This document shows positions 12,152 through 60,031 of a stretch of DNA of 64,000 nt, one piece after another. The stretch covers positions 127,419 through 191,418 of the forward strand of contig CAZVUO010000001.1 of the NCBI GenBank assembly GCA_964630235.1. Direction: 5' to 3'. The DNA is from an uncultured bacterium (lineage in GTDB: Bacteria > Oederibacteriota > JAAXVQ01 > JAUVAV01). The notes beneath the pieces are model-generated. The model did no database searches and had not been told where the DNA came from. It saw only the letters and a program-made list of their open reading frames with translations. Each line of letters begins with the position of its first letter. Positions within the stretch are counted from its first letter, which is position 1. The position numbers and the translations under genes were made by a program.

Positions 12152-12625
12152 TCACGGCGCTGATCCGATGACCTGCAGGATGACGCGGCGGTCGCGGGGC
12201 CGCGTATCGTGATCGATCAGCACCACCTGCTGCCAGGTGCCCAGCGTCAGCGCGCCGTTGACAACCGGGACGGTCAGCGAGGGCCCGATGAGCGCGGCGC
12301 GCAGATGGGACGCGCCGTTGCCATCGCCCCAGGTGCGGTCGTGCTGCCAGGCCCGGCCGGCGGGGATAAGCGCGTCCAAGACGGCCGGGAGGTCTTGCAG
12401 CAGGCCGGGTTCATATTCGAGCGTGGTGACCGAGGCCGTGGCGCCGGGCACGAAGACCGTCGCCTGCCCCTCGCGCACGCCGCTTTCGGTCAGCAGGCTG
12501 CGTAGGTGGTCTGTCACATCCAGCACGTGGTCCTGACCGCGGGTGGATAGGGCCAGTTCACGGGTTAAGACCTTCCAGGTGGTATTCGTTGCCTTGGGCA
12601 TCTTTGCACCCATTTTTAAGGTCAT
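12152..12625 (-). CDS. YjbQ/UPF0047 family protein (secondary thiamine-phosphate synthase-like)
   Basis: ...VFVPGATASVTTLEYEPGL...HLRAALIGPSLTVPVVNGALTLGTWQQVVLIDHDTRPRDRRVIL matches YjbQ. The start is uncertain; in-frame ATGs at 12625, 12613 and 12601. Confidence 0.7.
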   Translation of the reverse strand: MTLKMGAKMPKATNTTWKVLTRELALSTRGQDHVLDVTDHLRSLLTESGVREGQATVFVPGATASVTTLEYEPGLLQDLPAVLDALIPAGRAWQHDRTWGDGNGASHLRAALIGPSLTVPVVNGALTLGTWQQVVLIDHDTRPRDRRVILQVIGSAP

Positions 12626-12626
12626 G

Positions 12627-12786
12627 AGCAGTAGAACAGTCGAACAGTAGACCGCCCCGACCGGAATGACCCATATGGACGCCTTCGGCGCCTCGGGACT
12701 CCCACCGGTCGCCCCGACCGGTTGGATATGGGACTCCCACCGGTCGCAGGTTCGCCTATTCTACTGTTCAACTGTTCTACTGCTCA
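12627..12786. repeat. composite element: 25-bp near-perfect inverted repeat (12627-12651 / 12762-12786) enclosing two direct-repeat pairs
   Basis: gagcagtagaacagtcgaacagtag versus ctactgttcaactgttctactgctc, one mismatch. Inside, cgccccgaccgg occurs twice and gactcccaccggtcgc occurs twice. Confidence 0.7.
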
Positions 12787-16061: not shown

Positions 16062-16235
16062 TTAGCAAAAGGTCCCATAAAAGTCAAGCCGCAGAACCCT
16101 GAAAAAACAAAGCCGGACAGGCGCTTCCGCACCTGCCCGGCTTTGGGATTGAACTCAATGAACAATTGAGCAATAGAAAACAGACCGCCATTGAGCTTTT
16201 CGTTGCTCTAATTGCTCAATTTGCTCAATTGCTCC

Positions 16236-24897: not shown

Positions 24898-25066
24898 ACG
24901 CTCCTCGGGAATTTGAGCGGCGTATCGCTCAAATTCCGGAGCAATTGAGCAAATAGATCAATTGAGCAGGTGCATGCTCAATTGCGACCAGAGGAAGCCC
25001 CTATGGGCCATTCCGGTCGGGGCGGTCAATTGCTCAATGTGCTCGTTTTGCTCAGATTTAACTCCA

Positions 25067-39429: not shown

Positions 39430-41310
39430 TTAACGCACCACGACAAACTTTTTCTTGATCGTCCGCTTGCCCCCCGCGTCCTCCACCTGGAGGGTGGCGT
39501 AGTAGAACCCCGGCGCCAGGGCGCGGGTGTCCAGGTCCGTAACCGCGTTCCCGCGCACGGCCTGGGGCTGGTCCTCGACGCGGGCCACGATCTCGCCCGT
39601 GGCGTTGAAGATCACGATCTTGACCTGGCCAGGCCCTTCGAAATGGTAGATAAAGCGCGCCACCTCCCTGGCCGGCTGGGGAAAGACCACGCTTTCGTCG
39701 GACCGCAAGATATAGGGAGTCGTCGTGGATGTGATGGTAATGGTCGGAGTGATAGTCCTTGTAGGGGTAATCGTAGAAGTTGGCGTGAACGTGGAAGTAC
39801 GAGTAATCGTGGGCGTTGATGTTCTCGTTGGTGTTCTGGTACGTGTGGGAGTTATAGTAGGGGTCGGAGTGATCGTCGGTGTGGCAGTGTGGGTGGGGGT
39901 AATGGTCGGGGTCGGGAAGATGCTTAGAGCACGGAGCACATTAATTCGACCGCTGCCGATGGCTGATGAACTTCCAGAATCAACGCTATCGCAGTTACTT
40001 AGTATCCTCGTTCTGATTTGGGCTGATGTCATCGCGGGCCAGGCAAGCTTGATCATAGCGGCCAGTGCTGAAACCTGCGGGCAAGAAAAGGAAGTCCCAT
40101 CCACAGAACTCCAACCACCTGTGTTTGCAGTAGATGTGACACCGTTGTCTTCCGGAAACGAAGGATGATATTGTTGTAATGCCCCTCCAGGAGCGACACA
40201 GTCCAATCGCGAAGCATCGTAAGGGCTGCAGTAATTTGAATAATAGGTAATAAAATCCTCTGAGTCGGTTGCTCCGACACTCATAACACTCGCATAACAC
40301 GCAGGATACCGAGGCGCAGTTGCCAAATTAATATTCTCATTTCCTGCAGAGGCGACCATTAATTTGCCGGCGCTATTAGCGTAATTAATTGCCGTCAAAA
40401 TCGTGGCTGAATCAGTGCCGGTGGTGAAACTCATGCTCAAGATATCCGCCCCATTATCTACAGCCCAGGTAATCCCATCCGCGATATCAATAAATGTTCC
40501 AGCGGCGTCTTGGTCCAGTACTTTTACGGGCATGATCTTCACCCGGTTATCATAAGCTGTTCCCGCAATCCCGCTGCTATTGTTAATAATGGCTGCGATC
40601 GTGCCCGCAGCGTGTGTGCCATGTCCATAAATTGGGCGGCCGCCGAAAAAGATATTGTCATCGTTGGTATTTGTGTTGTTAAGGATTACGTTGTATCCCG
40701 GAACCAACCGACCGGAAAATTCAGCATGGTCGGCGTCAACACCCGTATCTAAAACCGCCACCACCACCTGCTGGGTGTTGAAAAAATAATTAGCCGCTTT
40801 AGCCGCGTCCCCACGCGTGCGGTTGATCCACCATTGCGTAAACCCATTTACATAATAAGTGTCGTTGAATGAACCTCCGATAGGTGTATAGGTAGTTGAA
40901 ATAGCCGCTGCGTAAACACGGCCATTAGGCTCGATGGCTTCGATTATTGCGTTCCCTCGCATGGCAGCCAACGCAGAAGCCACTGATTGCCCTGCGGGGA
41001 GTTCCAATAGATTCCAGTCTTTCAACCTCGTTTGACGCTTTACCCGAGTTTTAAAATGACGGTGAAATGCCGCCTCCGCAGTTGCGATATTTATGGCACT
41101 GGCTTGTACCTGGGTATTAAATCGCATACGGTCTTCCGCAGTTAGAACACTCTTATACTTGACTAATATTTCACCCTCAAAGTAGTCATTTGTCTTTTGG
41201 CAGGGATGCGGAAGAATTGGCATACCTGTTTTATCCGGACGATTGGCGGAAAACACCACTGAGGGGTAAAGGGCAATTATTAATATCAACAATCGGGAAA
41301 TACAGTTCAT
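39430..41310 (-). CDS. secreted S8 subtilisin-like serine protease + TP linker + C-terminal sorting-type domain (AT-rich gene)
   Basis: Signal MNCISRLLILIIALYPSVVFS; catalytic triad contexts VAVLDTGVDADHAEF / HGTHAAGTIAA / GTSFSCPQVSALAAM; TP-rich linker; C-terminus ...[17 protein letters not shown]...GFYYATLQVEDAGGKRTIKKKFVVVR. GGAGAGGTG RBS before the ATG at 41310. Confidence 0.85.
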   Translation of the reverse strand: MNCISRLLILIIALYPSVVFSANRPDKTGMPILPHPCQKTNDYFEGEILVKYKSVLTAEDRMRFNTQVQASAINIATAEAAFHRHFKTRVKRQTRLKDWNLLELPAGQSVASALAAMRGNAIIEAIEPNGRVYAAAISTTYTPIGGSFNDTYYVNGFTQWWINRTRGDAAKAANYFFNTQQVVVAVLDTGVDADHAEFSGRLVPGYNVILNNTNTNDDNIFFGGRPIYGHGTHAAGTIAAIINNSSGIAGTAYDNRVKIMPVKVLDQDAAGTFIDIADGITWAVDNGADILSMSFTTGTDSATILTAINYANSAGKLMVASAGNENINLATAPRYPACYASVMSVGATDSEDFITYYSNYCSPYDASRLDCVAPGGALQQYHPSFPEDNGVTSTANTGGWSSVDGTSFSCPQVSALAAMIKLAWPAMTSAQIRTRILSNCDSVDSGSSSAIGSGRINVLRALSIFPTPTITPTHTATPTITPTPTITPTRTRTPTRTSTPTITRTSTFTPTSTITPTRTITPTITITSTTTPYILRSDESVVFPQPAREVARFIYHFEGPGQVKIVIFNATGEIVARVEDQPQAVRGNAVTDLDTRALAPGFYYATLQVEDAGGKRTIKKKFVVVR

Positions 41311-41518
41311 TGTCGCACCTCTCCCTTTATAATAAGCATGTCCAAGTATAACAAGGCTTCCTATGAGAGGCAAGAGGTGCCGCCTCATTCTTTTAATTAA
41401 AATACCGACAAAACAAAGCTTTTTGTTTGCGTTTTGGGCACAATTCAAATACCCTTTTAAATATATAGAACATATTAGTAATTGATCGGGTTAATGAATG
41501 ACTCTCCAGGAGGAATCA

Positions 41519-44500
41519 TGGACAAATATTATAAAAACGGTTTGTTGTGGGTTACCCTTCTTTCCCTTGCAAGCGTCCCTTACCTATCAAGTCAAATATT
41601 CCATCACGAACAGGGCGAAGGCTTAATAAAAAATCAATCCGAGTGTTTTAACCATAGCAATGACAGATTGATTTATTTATCAAAAACTTTAGTACACCCC
41701 AAAGTCCTGCGGGCGGGCGCAACTAAATCCTGGATTGATAAAGCTCTTGAAACAATTGAAAATTATGAATATTTAGTGACCCACATTTCAGCGCGTCCCC
41801 AAGCAACCAATAGGCAACAAAATTTTCGTTCTTTTTTTGAACCTCAGGGAGTCACACTGCATCCTCGTGGTTTATCACAACGAAACCAGCATCGAGAACA
41901 TTCGAAGTCGTCATTAATAAATCGAAACAATAAAAATGTTCCACTTCCATCATGGAAGTGGAAATGGGAGACTAAAGAATTTGGCAGACGAGGTCTTTTA
42001 CACCCAATTTCCCCAGCCAAACCCATAATTAATGGCAATCGTGTAGAATATAATCGAGGTCCAATAACAGAGTGGTATGAAAACCGCCCGGAAGGTTTGG
42101 AACAAGGATTTATTATATTTCAAAGGCCAACTATTTCTGCAACCACTCTATCTTCAACTAATTTACCTAATAATGAATGGGTTATTATTGCTTCACATGA
42201 AATACAGGATTTGAAATTACGGCTCTCCTTCGATAATAAAAGCATATACTTTCTTGATAATAACCAAAATATTGTACTGGAATATGGGCAACTATTAGTT
42301 AAAGATAGAAATCAACATATATTACCCTCTAAATTGGGGGTTGAAAATAACAGGATTATTCTATCTTTTTCCGATAAAAATGCTACCTATCCCATAGTTA
42401 TTGATCCTTTACTAACCGCCCCCTCTTGGGCCAGAGAAAGTAATCAGGCCTTCGCTTTCTTTGGTTGTAGTGTAGCAAGTGCAGGAGATGTCAATGGTGA
42501 TGGATTTAGTGATGTACTTATTGGCGCATATGGTTTCGATAATGGCGAATCTGGCGAAGGACGCGCTTTTGTTTATCACGGAAGCGCATCCGGCCTTTCT
42601 TCAGTACCAAATTGGTCCGCAGAAGTTAATCAAGCTGACGCCCATTTCGGATGGTCGGTTTCTTCGGCCGGAGATGTTAATGGCGATGGATTTAGTGATG
42701 TAATTATCGGAGCCTACAAATATGATAACGGTGAAACCGACGAAGGCCGAGTTTATGTTTACCATGGTAGTCCATCAGGCCTCACTGTTTCACCCAATTG
42801 GACCGCCGAAGGTAATGAATCGAATGCTGTTTTCGGGTATTCCTTGGCTACCGCCGGTGATGTCAATAATGACGGTTATAGCGATATATTAATTGGTTTT
42901 AGAAATCACGTGTGCGTTTTTCACGGCAGTTCGACCGGCCTATCCAACACCCCCGCTTGGCTATACACAAACAATCAACCTGATTCCAACTTTGGCTATT
43001 CTGTAGCAGGAGCCGGAGATACCAATGGTGATGGGTTTAGCGATATTATCGTTGGGGATCATGGATTTGACAATGGTGAAACAAATGAAGGTAGTGCATA
43101 TGTCTTTCTCGGGAGCCCCACGGGTGTTACTACTACAGCCTTCTGGACTGCCGAAAGTAATCAAGCAGAGGCCTGGTTTGGCTTTTCCGTAGCCTGTGCG
43201 GGCGATGTTAATGGCGATGGATACAGTGACGTAATCATTGGGGCCCCCTATTGCGATAATCCCGAAACAAGTGAAGGCTTGGCATATGTATTTCATGGTA
43301 GTACATCGGGTCTTGCCCCTGTAGCATCATGGGTAGCCGAAAACAATCTTGCATTTAACTTTTTAGGATATTCCGTGTCCGGTGCTGGTGACATTAATGG
43401 AGATGGTTTCGGCGATGTTCTTGTTGGTATCCGCGGATATGACAATGGTCAGTCAGATGAGGGGCAGGCGTGCGTTTATCACGGAAGCGCAAGCGGACTT
43501 GCTACCGCACCATCATGGTCTGCCGAAGGCAACCTCGAATACAGCAGTTTCGCTAACGCTTTATCTAGTGCCGGCGATGTTAATGGCGATGGTTATAGCG
43601 ATGTAATTATTGGTGCATCGACTTATGATAATGGCGAAGCAGACGAGGGCCGGGCGTTCGTATTCAACGGAAGTGCTGTTGGTTTGACCCCAACCGCTTA
43701 TTGGTCCAACGAGAATAACCAGCCAGGTTCGCGACTGTCTACTTCCGCCGCTTATGCAGGAGACCTGAACGGTGATGGTTATAGTGATTTAATTGTAGGA
43801 GCCCCTTATTATGACGGAGTTTATAACGAAGCTGGCCGAGTGTATATTTTTCTTGGTAAATATGAAGGATTAAGTTTGACTGCCAACCAAACTATAGATG
43901 GTGGGATAGCCAGCGCTCTTTTTGGTTCTTGCGTATCGACGGCAGGCGATGTAAATGGCGATGGATTTTGCGATGCAATTGTTGGGGCCCCACATTTTAG
44001 TAATGGCGAAAGCAACGAGGGAATTGCTTATGTGTTTTATGGAAACGCCACCGGTCTTAATGCGAGTGCTTCATGGTCTTTTGAAAGTAATCAGATCGGC
44101 GCTCAATATGGATCTGCCGTATCTTCTGCTGGTGACGTAAACGGGGATGGATATGCAGATGTTTTAATATCATCGCCTTTTTATAACAACCTCGGAAGAG
44201 TATATTTATTCTTAGGTGGCGCCTCTGGCCTAGATAGTAATCCAGCTTGGTATGCCGAAGGAGATCAGATTAATGCGCAATTTGGCTCTGCAATCTCAAG
44301 TTGTGGAGACGTTAATGGTGATGGTTTTGCCGATATCGTTATCGGTGCCCCATTCTATGATAACGGCCAAACTGACGAGGGACGTGCGTTCGTATATTTG
44401 GGTCATTCAGGCGGATTAAGCAACCTTCCTGTATGGACCACCGAGAGCGGTCAAGCAGATGCGCAATATGGCCGTTCTGTTTCTTCGGCCGGAGATGTAA

Positions 44501-45708
44501 ACGGGGATGGTTATAGTGATGTGGTCATAAGCGCACCGTTTTACGATAATACCCAGAGCAACGAAGGTCGCGTATATGTCTATCACGGAAATGCCAACGG
44601 CTTGATCGCAACTCCTTCGTTTGCAGTTGACAGTGGTCAGAATAATGCTCAATTTGGCTGCTCAGTGGCTAGCGCAGGAGATATAAACAACGATGGATAT
44701 TGCGACATCATTATCGGCGCTTATCAATTGAACAATGGCCGTGCATACATATTCTTCGGTAGTACTAGCGGTCTGAACATCACCGCGAATTACTTCATAG
44801 ATGGCGACCAATCCGGTTCACAGTTCGGATATTACGTGGCTGGCACTGGAGACGCCAATGGCGATGGATACAGCGATGTGATTATTGGTGCGCCTTATTA
44901 TGATAATGGCCAAACCGACGAAGGAAAAACATTTCTCTATTACGGAAACGAAGGTGTCGCGACACGTCAGTTGCCACGCCAGATACGGCCAAGTAATAAC
45001 ACAGCAATCGGGCCTTCCGGATTAGCGGCCGCCTCAATTGCAAACACCGAATTCCTTGTCCGTTTGTTTTCAAAGGGAAGCCAAGGTCGATCTCGTTCAA
45101 AATTACAGGTTCAAATTTCCTCGCCAAGCCAACCAATTTCAACCGGAATCATTTATTCACAATCTTCATATACAGATACGGGGGTGGCGGGACTAGATCT
45201 AAATTTCATTGTTGGTGGTCTAAATCCTCAAAAGGCATATAATTGGAGAGCCCGTTTACTATACGATCCAAGTCAGAATAATAACGGTCAGCTTCATAGC
45301 CCATGGTATAGATTGTCATGGGGAAGTTTGAATGGTAACGCAGATTTCCGCACCGGGCCAGCGGCCCCTGCAACACCAACTCCAACACCCATTCCAACTA
45401 TATTGCCACCAGAAGATTTTCAGGGTCAGTTAATCGACAGTAAACACTTCTTTGTTTATCCAAATCCTGCCCGTGGGACGAATGTAAAATTCAAGTTTTT
45501 CCTGAAACAGGCAGCAACTGTAAAAATAAAAATATTTACCCCTCAAGGAAAATTTGTATGGGAAAAAGTAAATGAATATCCGCTTGGTTGGAGTGAAATA
45601 ACTTGGAACGCATCAGGAATGGCTAACGGTGTATATTTTTATATTGGAGAAGCTAAAAATAGCTTATACCAAGATAAAATCACAAAAAAGCTTGGTCTTG
45701 TTAAATAG
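41519..45708 (+). CDS. giant (1408 aa) secreted FG-GAP/integrin-alpha-type beta-propeller repeat protein with C-terminal sorting-type domain (AT-rich gene)
   Basis: About 18 repeats of ...F.G.SV..AGDVNGDGFSDVIIGA...DNGE.DEGRAFVY.GS..GLS... C-terminus FFVYPNPARGTNVKFKFFL...KIKIFTPQGKFV...GVYFYIGEAKNSLYQDKITKKLGLVK. AGGAGG RBS before the ATG at 41519. Confidence 0.85.
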
Positions 45709-45815
45709 CCGTTTTTTTTTACCGATTTATCGTTAGCTGTTTTGTTATCTGCGAATTGTTCTTAACTGTTCTCGTTATTTTTCGAGTCGCATCTGTTAGG
45801 CGAATTGCTTTCCTA

Positions 45816-45845
45816 TTTACAAAAATGCTCTTCCAAGCCTATAAT
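45816..45845 (+). promoter_or_regulatory. sigma70-like promoter (TTTACA-N18-TATAAT) upstream of the DUF4870 gene
   Basis: tttacaaaaatgctcttccaagcctataat, 45 bp upstream of the ATG at 45892. Confidence 0.45.
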
Positions 45846-45891
45846 ATCGGCAATTTCAGCTGTATGGCTTCACCCCAGGAGGAAACACCCC

Positions 45892-46251
45892 ATGTCCGTG
45901 CATGCCCATCACGAGGGCCACAGCGACCTTGGCACGACCAAGTCCGGCCTGGACCCCACGGTCGCGGCCGCCCTGGCCTATCTGCTGGGATTTGTCAGCG
46001 GCATTCTCTTCTATATCATCGAGAAGCACAATCCGTTTGTCCGTTTCCACGGCCTGCAGTCCACCATCTTCTTCGGCGGCTTGTTCGTGATTGTGGCCGT
46101 GCTGCACCAGATCCCCATTCTGGGCTTTATCCTCAATTTCATCATCCTGTTGACTGCTTTCGTCATCTGGCTGTTCCTGATGGTCAAAGCCTCCCAGGGC
46201 ATCGCCTTCAAACTGCCCTTTATCGGCGACCTCGCGGAACGCAATCTGTGA
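45892..46251 (+). CDS. DUF4870-family small membrane protein
   Basis: MSVHAHHEGHSDLG... then ...YIIEKHNPFVRFHGLQS... with 3 TM helices. AGGAGG RBS. Confidence 0.65.
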   Translation: MSVHAHHEGHSDLGTTKSGLDPTVAAALAYLLGFVSGILFYIIEKHNPFVRFHGLQSTIFFGGLFVIVAVLHQIPILGFILNFIILLTAFVIWLFLMVKASQGIAFKLPFIGDLAERNL

Positions 46252-46393
46252 ACTTCCCTGCAGCGACTTATGGGCCGTCCTTTAGGACTTGCTGCAGGGA
46301 ATCCGGAGATCATACCCCGGAACCGTGCCGCTTTCATTCACGCAACCAGCTGTGGCATTCGGTGAAGGGGTATAGGCCTGGAGCTGTCCCCGC

Positions 46394-47143
46394 ATGCTGA
46401 ACGGCTTGCGCATTGCCGTGGTCCTGCCCGCCTACAACGCGGCCAAAACCCTGGACCAGACCTTCGCTGAAATCCCCCGCGACACCGTGGACGAGATCAT
46501 CCTGGTGGACGATCACAGCCGGGACAACACCGCAGACAAGGCCCGGCAGCTCGGCATCGAAACGCACCGGCACGAGGCCAACCTGGGATACGGCGGCAAC
46601 CAGAAAACCTGCTACCGGCTGGCCCTGCAGAAGCAGGCCGACATCGTGGTCATGCTCCACCCCGATTACCAGTATACGCCCAAGCTCCTGCGCGCCATGT
46701 GCGCCATGATCGCGGACGGCGCCTACGACGTGGTCCTGGGCTCGCGTATTTTAACCGGCGGTGCCCTGCACGGCGGCATGCCGCTGTACAAGTATCTCAG
46801 CAACCGCGTGCTCACCCTGGTGGAAAACTGGCTGCTTGGCGCCAAACTCTCTGAATACCACACCGGCTACCGGGCCTACCGCCGCGAAGTGCTGGAGAAG
46901 ACCCCCTTCGACAAATTTTCCAATGACTTCATTTTCGACAACCAGTTCCTGATCGCGGTCATCCAGCAGGGCTGGCGGCTGGGCGAGCTCTCCTGCCCGA
47001 CCCGCTATTTTCCCGAAGCCTCCTCGATCAACTTCGGCCGCAGTTTGCGTTACGGCATCCTCTGCCTGTGGTACGCCTTAACCGCCAGCTGGTCCCTGCT
47101 GCCCCGCCGCCTCCGCAAGCTGTTCGGCCCACGCGCGTCCTGA
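46394..47143 (+). CDS. family 2 glycosyltransferase (dolichyl-phosphate mannosyltransferase-like)
   Basis: IAVVLPAYNAAKTLDQTF...DEIILVDDHSRDNTADKARQLG... with DxD context; 249 aa. Confidence 0.8.
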   Translation: MLNGLRIAVVLPAYNAAKTLDQTFAEIPRDTVDEIILVDDHSRDNTADKARQLGIETHRHEANLGYGGNQKTCYRLALQKQADIVVMLHPDYQYTPKLLRAMCAMIADGAYDVVLGSRILTGGALHGGMPLYKYLSNRVLTLVENWLLGAKLSEYHTGYRAYRREVLEKTPFDKFSNDFIFDNQFLIAVIQQGWRLGELSCPTRYFPEASSINFGRSLRYGILCLWYALTASWSLLPRRLRKLFGPRAS

Positions 47144-47439: not shown

Positions 47440-47459
47440 TCGCTTCGGAAGCGGATAAA

Positions 47460-47512
47460 ATAGAACGGGCGGTCGGGCCACAGCAGGCCTGACCGCCCGT
47501 TCTATTTTTAAT
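47460..47512 (+). terminator. rho-independent terminator (15-bp stem then T-run)
   Basis: atagaacgggcggtc...gaccgcccgttctat followed by tttttaattt. Confidence 0.7.
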
Positions 47513-47552
47513 TTCCTGTTCTCCTGCTCAACTGCTCAAATGCTCTGAAAAA

Positions 47553-47586
47553 ATCCTCCGGCGCCTAAGCGCCGGACGATTTTTTC
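47553..47586. terminator. bidirectional terminator hairpin tccggcgc-ctaa-gcgccgga flanked by A-run and T-run; the ruvX stop codon lies in the loop
   Basis: aaaaaatcc upstream and cgattttttcc downstream. The ruvX TAG is the complement of 47565-47567, inside the loop. Confidence 0.6.
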
Positions 47587-50020: not shown

Positions 50021-50224
50021 ATGGATGCCTCCTGAAAGGGTGGAATAACCTGCCGGCTCGCTGAGCCGTTATGCGCGCTTCCCGCTTTGCGGGAAGCAGA
50101 GCTTTTGATCAGGCGAACAGTTGAACGGCAGATGACCGCGTGGAGACCAATTCCCACCTGCACAAATGCGGCCGCGGTCCCCCAGAGGGGTTATTCCGGC
50201 CGGGGCGGTCTGCTGTTCACTTGC

Positions 50225-53623: not shown

Positions 53624-53659
53624 AGCGGCCCGGGTGCGGTGGGATCCGCACCCGGGCCG
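53624..53659. terminator. perfect 15-bp stem hairpin gcggcccgggtgcgg-tgggatc-ccgcacccgggccgc just 3' of rnpB
   Basis: Perfect inverted repeat between the recX start and the rnpB 3' end; no strong T-run follows. Confidence 0.45.
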
Positions 53660-53670
53660 CCGTACATTCA

Positions 53671-54041
53671 GGGGAGTAGTCCATAAGCCGAGTTCTGTCC
53701 CCCTTGCGGGGTGACGGTCATTTCTCTGGGACCAGCCTTGCGGCTGGCCTCTAGCGACCAACCCGAGGGCGCCGCGGGTCACGGTTTCCGGCGGCAGAAC
53801 CGCCGAAGCCCTCCTATTTGGTCTTGCTCCAAGTGGGGTTTGCCCTGCCACGCCGGTCACCCGGCGCGCGGTGAGCTCTTACCTCGCCTTTTCACCCTTA
53901 CCGCCCGCCTCGCGGCGGGAGGCGGTATGTTTTCTGTGGCACTTTCCTTCGCGTCGCCGCGACTGGGTGTTACCCAGCACTCTACCCTGGGAGCTCGGAC
54001 TTTCCTCCCCGGGCGCGAAGCCCGGAGCGACCGTCTGGACT
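53671..54041 (-). ncRNA. rnpB: RNase P RNA, bacterial type A
   Basis: Minus-strand sequence reads ...CGCCGGGAGUAGUCC(P1)...GGAGGAAAGUCCGAGCUCCCAGGGUAGAGUGCUGGGUAACACCCAGU...GCCACAGAAAACAUACCGCC...GGUAAGGGUGAAAAGGCGAGGUAAGAGCUCACC...ACAGAACUCGGCUUAUGGACUACUCCCC(P1). All universally conserved RNase P blocks are present and P1 closes. Confidence 0.9.
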
Positions 54042-54108
54042 ACTCCCGGCGATCGATTCGTCTTGGGAAGCGATCGCCATCACCTGCTCACCTTTCCCCT
54101 GCTCCAGC

Positions 54109-54702
54109 CTACTGGTTGAAATCCACCTTCGGCGGCTCCTGCGCGCCTTCCACCGCCTCGAACAGCGCGGCCTTCTCGAACTTGAAGATGCCGGCGATGA
54201 TGTTCTTCGGGAACACGCGGATGCTCTGGTTGAACTGCTTGACCAGTTCGTTGTAGCGCATCCGCTCCACCGCGATGCGGTTCTCCGTGCCCGCCAGCTC
54301 GTCCTGCAGTTGCCGGAAATTCTGGTCCGACTTGAGCTGCGGATAATTTTCCACGATCGCGAGCAGGCGCCCCAGGAACCCGCTCATCTCGTTGGCCGCC
54401 GTGATCTTGTCGCCCACGTTCTGGGCGCCGGCCAATTTGGACCGCGCGTTGGCCACGTTCTCGAAAATGCCTTTTTCCTGCTTGGCGTATCCCTTGACCG
54501 TGGACACCAGATTGGGTATCAGATCGTTGCGCCGCTGCAGCTGGTTTTCCACCTGGGACCAAGCGGCTTTCACCGACTCATCCAGGCGCACCAAACTGTT
54601 GTATCCGCCGATCACGTACAGCGTCACGCCGATCACCACCAGCACCACCACGACCACGATGATGCCCACCAAGGACAGCACTGCCAACCCCGTCTTCTCC
54701 AT
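54109..54702 (-). CDS. lemA: LemA-family membrane protein
   Basis: N-terminal TM then ...GGYNSLVRLDESVKAAWSQVENQLQRRNDLIPNLV...RMRYNELVKQFN... canonical LemA. Confidence 0.85.
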   Translation of the reverse strand: MEKTGLAVLSLVGIIVVVVVLVVIGVTLYVIGGYNSLVRLDESVKAAWSQVENQLQRRNDLIPNLVSTVKGYAKQEKGIFENVANARSKLAGAQNVGDKITAANEMSGFLGRLLAIVENYPQLKSDQNFRQLQDELAGTENRIAVERMRYNELVKQFNQSIRVFPKNIIAGIFKFEKAALFEAVEGAQEPPKVDFNQ

Positions 54703-54755
54703 CTCTCTTTCACCCTCCTCTATAGTCAGAATGCTTTCTCAACCGTTCTCTTTAC

Positions 54756-54875
54756 CAGCCTGCCTGAGGCCTTTCCTGAAGGCTTTTGCGAAAAAGACTC
54801 GTTTTGCTACTTTTTCGCAACAGAGGCCGCCCTCCCAAAGGCGGCCGTCCTGAAGGAAAGGCTTCAGGCAGGCTC
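54756..54875. promoter_or_regulatory. nested palindromic spacer between the TPM gene and lemA
   Basis: Outer ~27-bp imperfect IR (cagcctgcctgaggcctttcctgaagg / cctgaaggaaaggcttcaggcaggctc) enclosing a perfect 11-bp IR (ttgcgaaaaag/ctttttcgcaa) and a 7-bp stem (ggccgcc...ggcggcc). Confidence 0.5.
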
Positions 54876-54884
54876 ACTTCTGTC

Positions 54885-55706
54885 TTACCATCTTCCTCCC
54901 ACCCCTCCCCCTCCGCTAAACCCTCCGCCGAACCCTCCAAAACCGCCGCCTCTGAACCCTCCGCCGAAACCACCGCCGGACCCGTAAAAACCGCCGCCCA
55001 CGCCGGGCGGTCCCCACCCGGTCCCGGTTCCGCCCCGCCTGCGGATGTGATAATTCGCCCAGATGACAAACAACACGATCAGAACCGTGATCACCAACAG
55101 GGCGATCAGGGTGTCCCGCCGGTCATGGCGCGGCGTGCGGGCCGCGGCGCCCGTGAGTTGGACCCCGGCGTCTCTGGCAATGTCCTGGGCGATGACCCGG
55201 CCGATATTGGCGAGCCCCGCGCCGGTCTGGTTCTGCCGCAAGCGCGGAACGAGGTATTCGTCCCGGTAGCGGCCCAGCTTGCCGTCCGGCAGGATCCCTT
55301 CCAGGCCGTAACCCGTCAGGATCCGGATGCTCCGTTCTTTAAGCGCCAGCAGGATCAACAAGCCGTTGTTCTTGTCTTTCTGGCCGATCTTCCAGCGGTC
55401 GAAGACGGCCATGCCAAAGGAGAGGTCGTCGTAGGGGGCGATGCTGGGCATGATCACGAACACCAGCTGGGCCGTGGTCGCCTGCTCCAACGTTCTTGAA
55501 ATCTCCGTGAGCGTCGCCGTGTCGCCGGCGGAGAGCACGCCGGCATAATCGTTCACGTAGCCGCGCGGCTGGGGAACCGGAATATCCTCGGACGCGGCCC
55601 AGGCCGCGGCGGTCCCGGCAGCCAGCAGGCCGGCCAACAGCAGGAACTTCCAAGCGGCCGGCCTGGGATCGGCGAGGTTCCGCGGCCGCAGAGCCCCCGG
55701 TTTCAC
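54885..55706 (-). CDS. TPM-domain (YgcG-like) protein with C-terminal TM and Gly-rich tail
   Basis: Signal, TPM domain (...YVNDYAGVLSAGDTATLTEISRTLEQATTAQLVFVIM...), TM, then GGGFYGSGGGFGGGFRGGGFGGFGGGF tail. Start probably the GTG near 55706. Confidence 0.75.
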   Translation of the reverse strand: MKPGALRPRNLADPRPAAWKFLLLAGLLAAGTAAAWAASEDIPVPQPRGYVNDYAGVLSAGDTATLTEISRTLEQATTAQLVFVIMPSIAPYDDLSFGMAVFDRWKIGQKDKNNGLLILLALKERSIRILTGYGLEGILPDGKLGRYRDEYLVPRLRQNQTGAGLANIGRVIAQDIARDAGVQLTGAAARTPRHDRRDTLIALLVITVLIVLFVIWANYHIRRRGGTGTGWGPPGVGGGFYGSGGGFGGGFRGGGFGGFGGGFSGGGGVGGRW

Positions 55707-56092
55707 GCGGACCCCTCTCCCTTGTCCTTGAGCTGGCGCTCCACGTGCCGCAGCAGGCGTTCGGCCGTGCACGGTTTGACCAGGTAGTCGTCCGCGCCGC
55801 CGTCGGCGGCCATCCGCAAGGCATCCTGGTGGGAGAGCGCGCTTAAAAAGATCACCGGAATATGTTTGGTGCCCGGGTTCTCCTTGATGATCTGGCAGAC
55901 CTCGTAGCCGTTGACCCGCGGCAGCATGATGTCCAGGATAATGAGGTCCGGCCGTTCCCGCGACACGGCCTGCAGCGCCTCCCAGCCGCGCTGAAAAGTC
56001 TTCACGATATAGCCGCGGCTCTCCAGCACGTCCTTGAACAGTTCGACAATGCCGGGGTCGTCGTCCACGAGGATGATCCGTTTCCCGGCCAT
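55703..56092 (-). CDS. stand-alone response-regulator receiver domain (CheY-like)
   Basis: MAGKRIILVDDDPGIVELFKDVLESRGYIVKTF...DLIILDIMLP...DDYLVKP; Asp pocket and phospho-acceptor context present; 129 aa, no output domain. Confidence 0.85.
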   Translation of the reverse strand: MAGKRIILVDDDPGIVELFKDVLESRGYIVKTFQRGWEALQAVSRERPDLIILDIMLPRVNGYEVCQIIKENPGTKHIPVIFLSALSHQDALRMAADGGADDYLVKPCTAERLLRHVERQLKDKGEGSA

Positions 56093-56094
56093 GC

Positions 56095-57069
56095 CTAATC
56101 CCCTTTCAAGCCCAGCACGCTGCCTGGGCCGACATGATACCCGCAGGTGAAGGACTGGGCGGTCATCTGCTTGCGGTTCTCGCACTGCACGTGCAAGACC
56201 TGCAGGGTCGTGCCCCTGCCCGCGGCCACCAGCCAGCCTTCCTTGTGTTCCACTTCCAAAATGCTGCCAGGCGGCGTGCCGGGCGAAACCCGGCGGCTGC
56301 TCAGCCGGGTGGCGATGATCTTAAGCGTTTCACCGGCAACCTCGGTGTATGCGCCCGGCCAGGGCTGCAGGCCCCGGACCCGGTTGTGCAGTTCCCCGGC
56401 GGTTTGCGTCCAGTCCAACCGCCCGTCCTCGCGCGCGAGCCGGGGCGCCAGGGTCGCCAGGCTTTCGTCCTGCGGGATCCCGGCCCGCCCGCCTTCGCGG
56501 GCGAGAAGCTCCAGCGCCTGGGCCATGGCCGGCCCGCCCAGCCCCGCCAGCCGCGCGCTCAATTCCGCGGCCGTCTCGTCCGGGCCGATCCCGGTTTTCG
56601 CCTGGACCAGGATGTCGCCGCTGTCCACCCGTTCGGCCATGCGCTGAACCGTTACGCCGGTCTCGGTCTCGCCGCGGACGATCGCCCACTGGATGGGCGC
56701 GGCGCCGCGGTACTTGGGCAGGAGCGAGGCGTGCAAGTTCACCGCGCCCAGGGGCGGCAGCCCGAGGAGAGGCGCCTTGAGAATCTGTCCGTAGGCCGCC
56801 ACCACCAGCACGTCCGCGCCCAGTCCGGCCAGCTGCTCCACGACCGCCGGCTCGTTCACCTGCGCGGGCTGGAGGACCGGGGCGCCGAGCTCCAGCGCCG
56901 CCAGTTTGACGGGGCTCAGCACGGGCTGATACCCCCGCCCCTGCGGCTTGTCCGGCCCGGTCACGACCGCAACCACGGGAAATCCCGCCTGGCTGAGGTG
57001 GCGCAGCGTGGGAACTCCGAAATCAGGGGTGCCCATGAAAATCAGGCGCGGCCGCGGGGTGGTCGTCAT
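56095..57069 (-). CDS. fmt: methionyl-tRNA formyltransferase
   Basis: RLIFMGTPDFGVPTLRHL...VVTGPDKPQGRG... 324 aa. Confidence 0.93.
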   Translation of the reverse strand: MTTTPRPRLIFMGTPDFGVPTLRHLSQAGFPVVAVVTGPDKPQGRGYQPVLSPVKLAALELGAPVLQPAQVNEPAVVEQLAGLGADVLVVAAYGQILKAPLLGLPPLGAVNLHASLLPKYRGAAPIQWAIVRGETETGVTVQRMAERVDSGDILVQAKTGIGPDETAAELSARLAGLGGPAMAQALELLAREGGRAGIPQDESLATLAPRLAREDGRLDWTQTAGELHNRVRGLQPWPGAYTEVAGETLKIIATRLSSRRVSPGTPPGSILEVEHKEGWLVAAGRGTTLQVLHVQCENRKQMTAQSFTCGYHVGPGSVLGLKGD

Positions 57070-59879: not shown

Positions 59880-59961
59880 AGGATGGTTTCCGCATTATGC
59901 GCCAGGCCGCAGGTCCTGGCAAGCCCCAAAACAGAGCGGACAGACCGCGGCCTTTGGCGGT

Positions 59962-59999
59962 AAAAAAAACAGCCAAGGCATCCGCGGATGCCTTGGCTG
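59962..59999 (-). terminator. rho-independent terminator of the outer-membrane protein gene (13-bp stem followed by T8 on the minus strand)
   Basis: cagccaaggcatc-cgcg-gatgccttggctg with aaaaaaaa on the plus strand, i.e. UUUUUUUU on the transcript. Confidence 0.75.
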
Positions 60000-60031
60000 T
60001 TCGTCTTTCGCAGAAAGATCGCGTCTGAAGC

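What the first reader, a model, noticed from the sequence alone, without database searches (positions are those of the whole stretch)
54109..56092. Response-regulator receiver - TPM(YgcG) - nested palindromes - LemA module
A stand-alone CheY-like receiver overlaps by 4 bp a TPM-domain protein that has a TM helix and a Gly/Phe-rich tail. After a 182-bp spacer with three nested inverted repeats (27-bp imperfect outer IR, perfect 11-bp inner IR, 7-bp GC stem) comes LemA. LemA-TPM pairs are widespread but functionally uncharacterised. A receiver domain fused in-operon suggests the pair is a phospho-regulated envelope module. The elaborate spacer may gate readthrough into lemA or carry lemA's own regulated promoter.
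Basis: partly seen in the sequence, partly recalled or inferred. Interest (0 to 1): 0.5.

Follow-up and report, generated by a model that had tools for sequence, protein, structure and literature searches.

The report
Orphan receiver, TPM–LemA pair, palindromic spacer
The three genes and the nested palindromes are real, but the receiver sits beside this membrane gene pair only in one uncultured bacterial phylum, the pair has lost its usual third partner gene here, and the spacer holds a conserved 118-base three-way hairpin of unknown function.

Summary
These are a 129-aa CheY-like receiver, a GTGA overlap into a BA41-type TPM protein, a 182-bp spacer with three inverted repeats, and LemA.

- The window comes from a relative of candidate division FCPU426. 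There, fmt–RR–(NT)–TPM–LemA lies inside a conserved priA–def–fmt…rnpB–recX–alaS block.
- In 92 TPM loci from other phyla, LemA is present in 85. A 237-aa aminoglycoside-nucleotidyltransferase-like protein (NT) is present in 62. A receiver lies nearby in only 5, which is no enrichment.
- The widespread module is therefore TPM–NT–LemA. This lineage lost NT by a clean deletion that put the TPM start on the old NT start site.

The spacer carries a 118-nt three-way junction.
- It is 86% identical in a lineage whose TPM gene is 75% identical, while the adjacent leader is 40% identical.
- A second allele in the same population has a fully replaced but still pairing outer stem.
- A degenerate copy of its core sits at another locus in a relative.
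- It has no U-tract, no promoter match and no Rfam match.

I read it as a REP-like intercistronic element, probably acting in mRNA processing or stability. That function is inferred, not shown.

The parts
55703..56092 (-). Stand-alone CheY-like response-regulator receiver (129 aa). It starts 2 nt after the fmt stop.
   Evidence: Pfam PF00072 6e-30. The phospho-acceptor set D10/D11/D54/S84/K106 is conserved in 22 orthologues. The orthogroup has 35 proteins at 64-97% identity, then a gap to 51%.
54885..55706 (-). BA41/YgcG-type TPM protein (273 aa): signal peptide, TPM domain, one TM helix, Gly/Phe-rich tail. Its GTG start overlaps the RR stop (GTGA).
   Evidence: Pfam PF04536 6e-33. The family profile matches PDB 5anp (BA41) over the full length, 9e-46. 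The Gly/Phe tail columns are invariant in 30 homologues.
54757..54874 (-). 118-nt three-way-junction palindromic element: a 26-bp imperfect outer stem enclosing hairpin 1 (GGCCGCC/GGCGGCC) and hairpin 2 (TTGCGAAAAAG/CTTTTTCGCAA).
   Evidence: Three alleles exist. 98% of cells are paired and 17 of 40 pairs changed on both sides. It is 86% identical to allele C, while the flanking leader is 40% identical.
54703..54756 (-). lemA leader with a GGAGG Shine-Dalgarno sequence. It is otherwise poorly conserved and has no promoter match.
   Evidence: Part of it (AAAGAGAACGGT..) is shared with L001.
54109..54702 (-). LemA family protein (197 aa): N-terminal TM helix plus a helical-bundle domain.
   Evidence: Pfam PF04011 3e-62. 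PDB 2etd 7e-53. NCBIfam MamQ 1e-33, below its cut-off.
56095..57069 (-). fmt (methionyl-tRNA formyltransferase), immediately upstream and coupled to RR.
   Evidence: Pfam Formyl_trans_N and Formyl_trans_C. The same order occurs in all related loci.
53669..54046 (-). RNase P RNA (class A), 62 nt downstream of lemA on the same strand. It is followed by a 15-bp perfect hairpin at 53660-53625.
   Evidence: Rfam RF00010, 305 bits, E 1e-99. Hairpin.

Best explanation
The region is the tail of a long housekeeping transcription unit, priA-def-fmt-RR-TPM-lemA-rnpB, in a bacterium of the candidate phylum FCPU426.

TPM and LemA are the two membrane components of a widespread three-gene module, TPM + NT + LemA. 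NT is a cytoplasmic protein with an AadA/KNTase-like nucleotidyltransferase fold. This lineage lost NT by a clean deletion that placed the TPM signal peptide on the old NT start codon, so TPM inherited the translational coupling to RR.

The orphan single-domain receiver is a phylum-specific addition wedged between fmt and the module. It is a functional phospho-acceptor and is co-expressed with the module. Its target, which could be the module, something else, or a phosphate-sink role, is not established.

The spacer carries a conserved 118-nt three-way-junction palindrome. A core of two hairpins is conserved in sequence and sits inside a long outer stem that is conserved only in pairing. It belongs to a small dispersed family and so resembles REP elements. 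It is transcribed as part of the polycistronic mRNA. It most likely acts as an intercistronic processing or stability element, either as an RNase III-type target or as a 3'-exonuclease barrier. This would uncouple the level of lemA(-rnpB) from the upstream genes. I do not read it as a terminator, promoter or riboswitch.

Shown: gene identities, coupling, co-occurrence statistics, NT loss, and the structure, conservation, alleles and paralogue of the element.
Inferred: co-transcription, the RNA-level role, and any RR-to-module signalling.
For: Gene identities.

Lineage and synteny:
- The closest named homologue is from candidate division FCPU426.
- The order priA-def-fmt-RR-(NT)-TPM-LemA-(aroF)-recX-alaS occurs in L001, L003, L005-L007, L169, L179-L191 and the P0002 contig.

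Module composition outside the phylum:
- Of 92 loci, 85 have LemA, 62 have NT and 5 have RR.
- Receiver domains are not enriched near the module.
- The module is never next to fmt, priA, recX or alaS there, and a def match occurs in only one of the 160 loci.

NT:
- AF2 model with pLDDT 95.
- Foldseek hits to AadA, ANT(4') and AAD(9) at TM about 0.6, and to HalB at about 0.5.
- Profile hits to MNT and ANT structures.
- Absent from the window by tblastn.
- The deletion junction GTGAAAC in the window corresponds to ATGAAC in L001.
- The NT-less arrangement occurs in at least 15 independent contigs.

RR: catalytic residues are intact and the orthogroup is sharply bounded.

Three-way junction:
- Fold z = -3.5.
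- Allele C in a lineage with 75% TPM nucleotide identity is 86% identical. The adjacent leader is 40% identical and third codon positions are 77-79% identical.
- Allele B occurs in strains encoding an identical LemA protein (L181, L183, L185), and the flanking genes of L003 are 88-100% identical in 100-nt windows. It has an unrelated outer stem that still pairs, plus compensatory changes in both inner hairpins.
- A covariance model built from A and C finds B at 79.5 bits.
- 98% of cells are paired and 17 of 40 pairs show double changes. 0 of 500 shuffles reach this, and slid controls reach at most 64% paired and at most 6 pairs.
- A copy of the core (42 of 49 nt identical) lies at another locus in L005. 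It is unique among 35,792 control windows.

Placement in the transcript:
- There is no U-tract after the stem, while terminator-type hairpins elsewhere in this genome carry T-runs, for example at 59946-60023, 47547-47586 and 16108-16145.
- These hairpins bracket priA..rnpB.
- The scan found no promoter match in the spacer, and my own reading of the leaders shows only the SD sequence conserved.
Against: - There are no expression data, so co-transcription and processing are inferred.
- Sense and antisense strands fold equally well, with only 0-2 G-U pairs among 43-50 pairs. Nothing shows that selection acts on the RNA of the sense strand rather than on a DNA palindrome.
- Stems are conserved in sequence while loops vary. 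That is the opposite of typical ligand-binding RNAs and is also what a young or mobile palindrome would show.
- Only three alleles and one paralogue are known. 14 of the 17 double changes come from a single replacement event.
- The high A-C identity could partly reflect recombination rather than purifying selection.
- The element is absent from other FCPU426 lineages, which have only a simple or unrelated hairpin. It cannot be essential to the module.
- RR conservation within a fully syntenic block does not identify its partner.
Confidence: 0.5

Rival explanations
1. RR is the dedicated phospho-switch of the TPM-LemA envelope module. The phosphorylated receiver binds the cytoplasmic Gly-rich tail of TPM or the LemA bundle, and the spacer is an attenuator or promoter that gates lemA.
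For: RR is intact, more conserved than TPM (68-82% versus 57-75% identity), and always directly upstream with overlapping or near-abutting reading frames. The coupling survived the NT deletion. A receiver gene directly follows lemA on the same strand in two unrelated loci, L012 and L036. LemA and a TPM gene are co-induced under membrane stress in Flavobacterium columnare (PMC13236525).
Against: Receivers are not enriched next to the module in other phyla: 5 of 92 loci, and 0.13 versus 0.19 per 10 kb. RR is coupled equally to fmt. In most relatives RR overlaps NT, not TPM. No histidine kinase was found in the H-box motif scan or among the 20 large ORFs scanned against Pfam. The spacer has no U-tract terminator or promoter match. 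The element is missing from most RR-bearing relatives.
Confidence: 0.3
2. The three-way junction is a selfish MITE- or REP-like palindromic insertion. Its core may lodge in the loops of pre-existing 3' hairpins. It would have no role in lemA expression, and its apparent conservation would reflect recent spread or recombination.
For: A core copy lies at a second locus in the opposite orientation in L005, with its own unrelated outer inverted repeat. Two discrete alleles exist within one population. Related lineages have a plain hairpin at the same site. The palindromes are almost pure Watson-Crick with no strand bias. Another branched palindrome lies at 12625-12786, and allele-B strains carry an extra palindrome after lemA.
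Against: Only one copy occurs in the 64-kb window. I saw no target-site duplication on reading the flanks (no tool test was run). The element has the same site and orientation in lineages with 75-79% coding identity, and is 86% identical there while the adjacent non-coding DNA is 40% identical. The core pattern was not found in metagenome or viral collections. No transposase is nearby.
Confidence: 0.25
3. The nested palindromes are DNA operators. A dimeric regulator would bind the 11-bp inverted half-sites (TTGCGAAAAAG N13 CTTTTTCGCAA) and control an internal lemA/rnpB promoter.
For: Stem sequences are conserved while loops vary between alleles A and C, as expected for sequence-specific half-sites. 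The element has strand symmetry. rnpB downstream needs expression signals.
Against: There is no promoter-like hexamer pair in or after the element. The leader is not conserved. Allele B changes both half-sites in a compensatory way and replaces the outer repeat entirely while keeping the pairing. That points to base pairing rather than sequence read-out. There is no DNA-binding regulator gene in the cluster.
Confidence: 0.1
4. The element is a riboswitch or a small non-coding RNA gene of a new family.
For: It has a three-way-junction architecture like several riboswitch aptamers. The structure is conserved across three alleles.
Against: There is no Rfam match at E <= 1. Junction strands are only 1-4 nt long. 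Loops and junctions vary while stems are conserved. There is no expression platform, meaning no terminator and no SD sequestration, because the SD lies about 35 nt beyond the stem. The phyletic range is narrow.
Confidence: 0.05

Closest known systems
LemA (PF04011; T. maritima 2ETD; MamQ-related) with BA41/YgcG-type TPM proteins (PF04536; PDB 5ANP)
   Same: Both proteins match their families strongly and over the full length. The adjacent same-strand pairing is the common arrangement across phyla.
   Different: In two thirds of loci the pair includes a third gene for an AadA/KNTase-like NT protein. That gene has been deleted here. Here the pair is also embedded in a priA-def-fmt housekeeping block and preceded by a receiver. 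Neither feature is seen in other phyla.
Stand-alone CheY-like response regulators (for example CheY, DivK, CpdR)
   Same: It is a single receiver domain of 129 aa with the complete acidic pocket, T/S and K residues. It has no output domain.
   Different: No kinase was found in the 64-kb window and there is no chemotaxis or cell-cycle context. It belongs to a phylum-restricted orthogroup with its own conserved alpha4-beta5-alpha5 surface. Its gene is wedged between fmt and a membrane module.
REP/BIME-type intergenic palindromic elements of enterobacteria, and intercistronic stabiliser hairpins such as malE-malF REP (from my own knowledge)
   Same: It is an intergenic, same-strand intercistronic position, imperfect palindrome without a U-tract. 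It is present or absent and variable between close strains. At least one related copy lies elsewhere.
   Different: It is a branched three-way junction with a conserved two-hairpin core inside a variable outer stem. Copy number appears very low. No RAYT-like transposase was seen. It is unrelated in sequence to any Rfam family.
Intrinsic (Rho-independent) terminators
   Same: It is a GC-rich stem-loop immediately after a stop codon.
   Different: It has no U-tract. Terminator-type hairpins elsewhere in this genome do carry T-runs. It is much larger and branched.
Aminoglycoside nucleotidyltransferases AadA/ANT(4')/AAD(9) and Hailong HalB (relevant to the missing NT partner)
   Same: The NT family model has the same two-domain fold, at TM about 0.6 and 0.5 respectively.
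   Different: Sequence identity is 10-16%. The DxD motif reads (D/N)xN in the family. NT is always linked to TPM and LemA rather than to resistance or defence genes. It is not present in this window.

Membership tests
Response regulator receiver (PF00072), stand-alone class | Receiver fold with acidic pocket DD, phospho-acceptor D, conserved T/S and K | tested here: met
   Pfam 104 bits against a cut-off of 30.2. D10, D11, D54 and K106 are invariant and S/T84 is kept in the orthologue alignment.
Response regulator receiver (PF00072), stand-alone class | No output domain | tested here: met
   The protein is 129 aa and the receiver domain covers residues 6-117.
Two-component system | Cognate histidine kinase encoded nearby | tested here: not met
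   An H-box motif scan of all ORFs found nothing. Twenty large ORFs across the window have no HisKA or HATPase_c domain. The immediate neighbours are fmt, def, priA, rnpB, recX and alaS.
TPM domain proteins (PF04536), BA41/YgcG architecture | TPM domain followed by a TM helix and a Gly-rich C-terminal tail, preceded by a signal peptide | tested here: met
   Pfam 114 bits. The profile matches BA41 (5anp) over residues 12-257. The tail columns are invariant.
TPM domain proteins (PF04536) | Phosphatase or ATPase activity, or metal binding | not testable with these tools
   The literature shows that TPM domains range from phosphatases to non-catalytic adaptors (PMC13456599).
LemA family (PF04011) | N-terminal TM helix plus a LemA helical domain | tested here: met
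   Pfam 209 bits covering model positions 1-149 of 149. PDB 2etd 7e-53.
MamQ (NCBIfam NF040966) | Score above the equivalog cut-off | tested here: not met
   116.6 bits against a cut-off of 250. It is related to MamQ but is not MamQ.
TPM-NT-LemA three-gene module (defined here from co-occurrence) | All three genes adjacent on one strand | tested here: not met
   NT is absent from the window (tblastn). TPM and LemA are present. NT is present in 61 of the 85 LemA-bearing loci elsewhere and in the other FCPU426 lineages.
Intrinsic terminator | GC-rich hairpin followed by a U-tract | tested here: not met
   The tail after the outer stem is GGUAAAGAGA, and the scan reports no site in the spacer.
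Sigma-70-type promoter in the spacer | -35 and -10 hexamers with 16-18 nt spacing | tested here: not met
   The scan finds none in 54703-54884. Caveat: the promoter consensus of this phylum is unknown.
Known RNA families (Rfam 15) | Covariance-model match | tested here: not met
   There is no match in the spacer at E <= 1.
REP/MITE-like dispersed palindromic elements | Intergenic imperfect palindrome | tested here: met
REP/MITE-like dispersed palindromic elements | Multiple dispersed copies in a genome | tested here: inconclusive
   One homologous core lies at a second locus in L005. The 64-kb window has no second copy. No complete genome was available.
REP/MITE-like dispersed palindromic elements | Target-site duplication or terminal inverted repeats shared between copies (MITE) | tested here: not met
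   The outer arms differ between the A/C alleles, allele B and the L005 copy. I saw no flanking direct repeat on reading the sequences.
RNase III substrate | About 20 bp or more of near-continuous double-stranded RNA | tested here: met
   The outer stem has 26 positions with 3 mismatches in allele A and 22 perfect pairs in allele B. Cleavage itself is not testable here.
Integron attC site | R''(RYYYAAC)...R'(GTTRRRY) core sites in that order, with an integrase nearby | tested here: not met
   Allele B has GTTGGGT...ACCCAAC but in the reverse order. Allele A has neither. There is no integrase in the cluster (sequence reading).

The most novel reading that the evidence does not exclude
The 118-nt three-way junction is the founding member of an undescribed class of structured intergenic elements in candidate phylum FCPU426. 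In this class a conserved two-hairpin core sits inside host-specific long stems. The element would work as an RNA processing site that sets the LemA and RNase P RNA dosage relative to the upstream genes. In parallel, the phylum-specific orphan receiver would be the dedicated regulator of a widespread but unrecognised TPM-NT-LemA membrane system, and this lineage would be a natural NT knockout of that system.
Probability: 0.15. Interest if true: 0.6.

Novelty: new variant of a known kind. Interest (0 to 1): 0.4.

Why it matters
LemA and TPM/YgcG proteins are among the most widespread bacterial membrane proteins with no assigned function. This work adds three usable facts.

- Their common third partner is a cytoplasmic AadA/KNTase-fold protein that has no dedicated Pfam or NCBIfam model.
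- One natural lineage dispenses with that partner while keeping TPM, LemA and the upstream receiver. This gives a comparative handle on what NT does.
- In one candidate phylum an orphan receiver is stably coupled to the module. That gives a concrete, testable candidate regulator.

The three-way-junction element has purifying-type conservation, discrete alleles within one population, and a paralogue. It is a tractable case for asking how palindromic intergenic elements arise and whether they tune operon stoichiometry in uncultured phyla.

None of this overturns current understanding. The receiver link is lineage-specific and the function of the spacer remains inferred.

Tried and rejected
1. 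Repeat copies in the window: a search for the outer arm and blastn-short with both alleles found nothing else.
2. A core DNA pattern scan of metagenome contigs and viral contigs gave 0 hits.
3. The protein-based metagenome scan and the genome scan returned only distant relatives (30-46% identity). They served for co-occurrence but gave no new alleles.
4. Strand swap: the 5' outer arm of allele B matches the 3' arm of allele A in 11 of 12 nt, p about 5e-4. No simple inversion produces this, so it is left unexplained.
5. Ancestry of the allele B outer stem: I tested whether it derives from the simple L001 hairpin. The similarity is not significant (p = 0.2-0.5), so I dropped the idea.
6. A survey of hairpins downstream of all stop codons was uninformative, because GC-rich coding DNA folds strongly everywhere.
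7. attC, hammerhead and purine-riboswitch readings were rejected on core motifs and the lack of Rfam hits.
8. PADLOC gave only marginal, non-specific hits.
9. Contig breaks near the spacer looked like evidence of repeats at first. The low-complexity Gly-codon tail of TPM explains them equally well, so I drew no inference.
10. Literature searches for LemA with TPM, YgcG, MamQ or PspA gave no functional study of the pair.
Full report
**Observation**

All the genes lie on the minus strand. ORF listing and sequence reading with Pfam give the following:
- A 129-aa receiver at 56092-55703 (Response_reg, 6e-30).
- A 273-aa TPM protein at 55706-54885 (TPM_phosphatase, 6e-33). Its GTG start overlaps the receiver's TGA stop as GTGA.
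- A 182-bp spacer at 54884-54703.
- LemA at 54702-54109 (3e-62).

The three inverted repeats are as described:
- An outer pair of 26 nt at 88% complementarity.
- An inner pair of 14 nt containing a perfect 11-mer.
- A 7-bp GGCCGCC/GGCGGCC stem.

Folded as RNA, the minus strand forms a three-way junction (3WJ) of -78 kcal/mol, with z = -3.5 against shuffles. The outer arm occurs nowhere else in the window.

- fmt ends 2 nt before the receiver start, and def and priA lie upstream of it.
- RNase P RNA (Rfam, 305 bits) begins 62 nt after the lemA stop, followed by recX and alaS.

**Whose genome, and how stable is the arrangement**

The TPM protein's nearest named homologue is from candidate division FCPU426. 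I fetched the surrounding contigs. Every contig that reaches far enough has the order priA-def-fmt-RR-...-TPM-LemA-(aroF)-recX-alaS.

The receiver orthogroup is sharply bounded. It contains 35 proteins at 64-97% identity, and the next hit is at 51%. All phospho-acceptor residues are kept, and the alpha4-beta5-alpha5 face is highly conserved. The receiver is therefore real, functional in form, and fixed at this position across the phylum-level lineage.

**The missing gene**

In every relative with 57-75% TPM identity, a 236-238-aa gene lies between RR and TPM. RR overlaps this gene (NT), not TPM.

NT is absent from the window by tblastn. The NT-less arrangement recurs in at least 15 independent contigs from different samples, so it is not an assembly artefact.

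At the junction, the window reads ..GCGTGAAACC.. where L001 reads ..CCATGAACC... The TPM reading frame now begins at the old NT start and inherits the coupling to RR.

**What NT is**

NT has no curated family. Its only Pfam matches are weak hits to NTP_transf_2 and Polbeta, and it has no NCBIfam match. Other evidence points to a nucleotidyltransferase fold:
- A family profile reaches MNT and ANT structures in the PDB.
- An AlphaFold model has pLDDT 95.
- That model superposes on AadA, ANT(4') and AAD(9) at TM about 0.6, and on Hailong HalB at about 0.5.
- The canonical DxD motif reads (D/N)xN across the family, so catalytic activity is uncertain.

**Co-occurrence beyond the phylum**

I collected 160 loci around TPM homologues of 30-46% identity from many phyla. 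I searched their six-frame ORFs with the window's RR, TPM and LemA and with the L001 NT. Of 92 loci with at least 2.5 kb on both sides:
- 85 have LemA.
- 62 have NT, and 61 have both.
- 5 have a receiver within 2.5 kb, in no consistent position or strand.

The dominant gene orders are TPM-NT-LemA (46 loci), LemA-TPM (15), NT-TPM-LemA (11) and TPM-LemA (8).

Receiver density within 1.5 kb of the module is 0.13 per 10 kb, against 0.19 further out. In other phyla the module is never next to fmt, priA, recX or alaS, and a def match occurs in only one of the 160 loci.

The conserved unit is therefore TPM + NT + LemA. The receiver, and the embedding in a housekeeping block, are FCPU426-specific.

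An H-box motif scan found no histidine kinase in the window, and none of the 20 large ORFs scanned against Pfam has kinase domains.

**The spacer**

Outside FCPU426, the gap before lemA has a median of 38.5 nt, with 11 of 92 at 150 nt or more. The 182-nt structured spacer is thus not a property of the module.

Within the window's own population there are two discrete alleles:
- Allele A: the window, L179, L180, L182, L184 and L186.
- Allele B: L003, L004, L169, L170, L181, L183 and L185.

In a window-versus-L003 comparison by 100-nt windows, the flanking genes are 88-100% identical and the spacer 51-66%. Allele-B contigs L181, L183 and L185 encode exactly the window's LemA protein.

Both alleles fold into the same 3WJ. 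The two inner hairpins are homologous, with one compensatory double change each. The 22-26-bp outer stem is unrelated in sequence but still pairs.

A third allele, C, lies at the same site in an NT-bearing lineage (L187-L190). Nucleotide identities between the window and L187 are:

| Region | Identity |
|---|---|
| fmt | 79% |
| TPM | 75% |
| RR | 89% |
| LemA | 91% (third codon positions 79%) |
| Leader next to the 3WJ | 40% |
| 3WJ | 86% |

The differences within the 3WJ are concentrated in the two hairpin loops.

A covariance model built from A and C finds B at 79.5 bits. On the three alleles, 98.3% of cells pair and 17 of 40 pairs changed on both sides. No shuffle out of 500 reaches this, and slid controls reach at most 64% paired and at most 6 pairs. 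Two caveats apply: the alignment is fitted to the model, and 14 of the 17 double changes are one replacement event.

Other FCPU426 lineages have a plain 13-bp hairpin (L001), an unrelated long imperfect hairpin of roughly 27 bp (L191), or little structure (L005-L007) at the same place.

The model also found a degenerate core copy in L005, between a VWA gene and priA, on the other strand and with its own unrelated outer repeat. It shares 42 of 49 nt with allele A and is unique among 35,792 control windows. The core is therefore a dispersed sequence and not only a local one.

**What the element is not**

- Not a canonical terminator. There is no U-tract, whereas terminator-type hairpins in this genome at 59946-60023, 47547-47586 and 16108-16145 carry T-runs.
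- No sigma-70-type promoter match, and the leader is not conserved apart from the SD sequence.
- No Rfam family matches.
- Not attC by core-site order.

Sense and antisense strands fold equally well, with almost no G-U pairs. The data do not show whether selection acts on RNA or on DNA.

**Model**

The T-run hairpins at 59946-60023 and the 15-bp hairpin after rnpB at 53660-53625 bracket priA..rnpB. This suggests one long transcription unit with the 3WJ in the middle of it.

I take the element to be a REP-like intercistronic structure. Its most likely role is as an RNase III-type processing site or an exonuclease barrier that adjusts lemA(-rnpB) levels relative to fmt-RR-TPM.

The receiver is co-expressed with the module and may regulate it, but its partner is unassigned.

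All of these steps are inferred from position and structure. None is shown.

**Comparison with what is known**

- LemA matches T. maritima 2ETD. It is related to MamQ but scores below that family's cut-off.
- The TPM protein has the BA41 architecture.
- TPM domains range from phosphatases and an ATPase to non-catalytic adaptors (PMC13456599).
- The only paper found linking LemA and a TPM gene reports their co-induction in a membrane-stressed Flavobacterium mutant (PMC13236525).

**Verdict**

The "phospho-regulated envelope module" is a lineage-specific possibility and not a general property. The more informative findings are three:
- The TPM-NT-LemA triad.
- The natural loss of NT in this lineage.
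- The conserved, dimorphic three-way-junction element.

Interest is moderate.

Noticed in passing
window 53669-54046 (-), hairpin at 53625-53660: An RNase P RNA (class A, 305 bits) lies 62 nt downstream of lemA on the same strand. It is preceded by an 8-bp hairpin and followed by a 15-bp perfect hairpin. It may be co-transcribed with the priA..lemA unit.
   Followed up: partly
window 12625-12786: A second branched palindrome has 27-bp outer arms (96% complementary) and a 108-nt interior containing internal direct repeats. It is intercistronic between two minus-strand genes and is unrelated in sequence to the lemA spacer element.
   Followed up: partly
window 12651-12676, 25002-25027, 50188-50218; L001 11401-11483: A recurring intergenic motif ACCGCCCCGRCCGGAAT is preceded by GAGCA-type repeats, for example just after alaS. 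It could be a phylum-specific promoter, terminator or repeat motif.
   Followed up: partly
window 16166-16235, 24945-25031, 47525-47540, 54070-54105: Short TGCTCA/GAGCA repeats cluster in intergenic regions, including the gap between lemA and rnpB.
   Followed up: no
window 39430-46400: A low-GC3 island (GC3 0.34-0.52 against about 0.8 elsewhere) encodes a 1408-aa FG-GAP repeat protein and an S8 subtilase. Both carry a type IX secretion (Por_Secre_tail) sorting domain. It looks horizontally acquired.
   Followed up: partly
L003 5895-5975 and L169 5141-5220: Allele-B strains carry an extra palindrome of about 60 nt between lemA and rnpB that the window lacks. This is a second intergenic palindrome polymorphism in the same cluster.
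   Followed up: partly
Allele A 3' outer arm (window 54757-54782) versus allele B 5' outer arm (L003 5120-5141): A 12-nt segment AAAGGCCKCAGG is shared, but on opposite arms of the stem (11 of 12 nt, p about 5e-4). No simple inversion explains this.
   Followed up: partly
L001 5313-6026 and 87 other loci: The NT family (about 237 aa) has no dedicated Pfam or NCBIfam model. Its confident AlphaFold model has an AadA/KNTase/HalB-like fold, and its DxD motif is replaced by (D/N)xN. It is a consistent partner of TPM and LemA across many phyla.
   Followed up: yes
window 47457-47508 and 47547-47586: Two strong hairpins lie in tandem, each flanked by A- and T-runs, which I read as bidirectional intrinsic terminators. 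They show that the organism has terminator-type hairpins with T-runs.
   Followed up: no
P0155 (protein): A receiver whose N-terminal half is almost identical to the window's RR (one difference in the first 66 residues) and whose remainder diverges sharply. It is probably a chimeric assembly.
   Followed up: no
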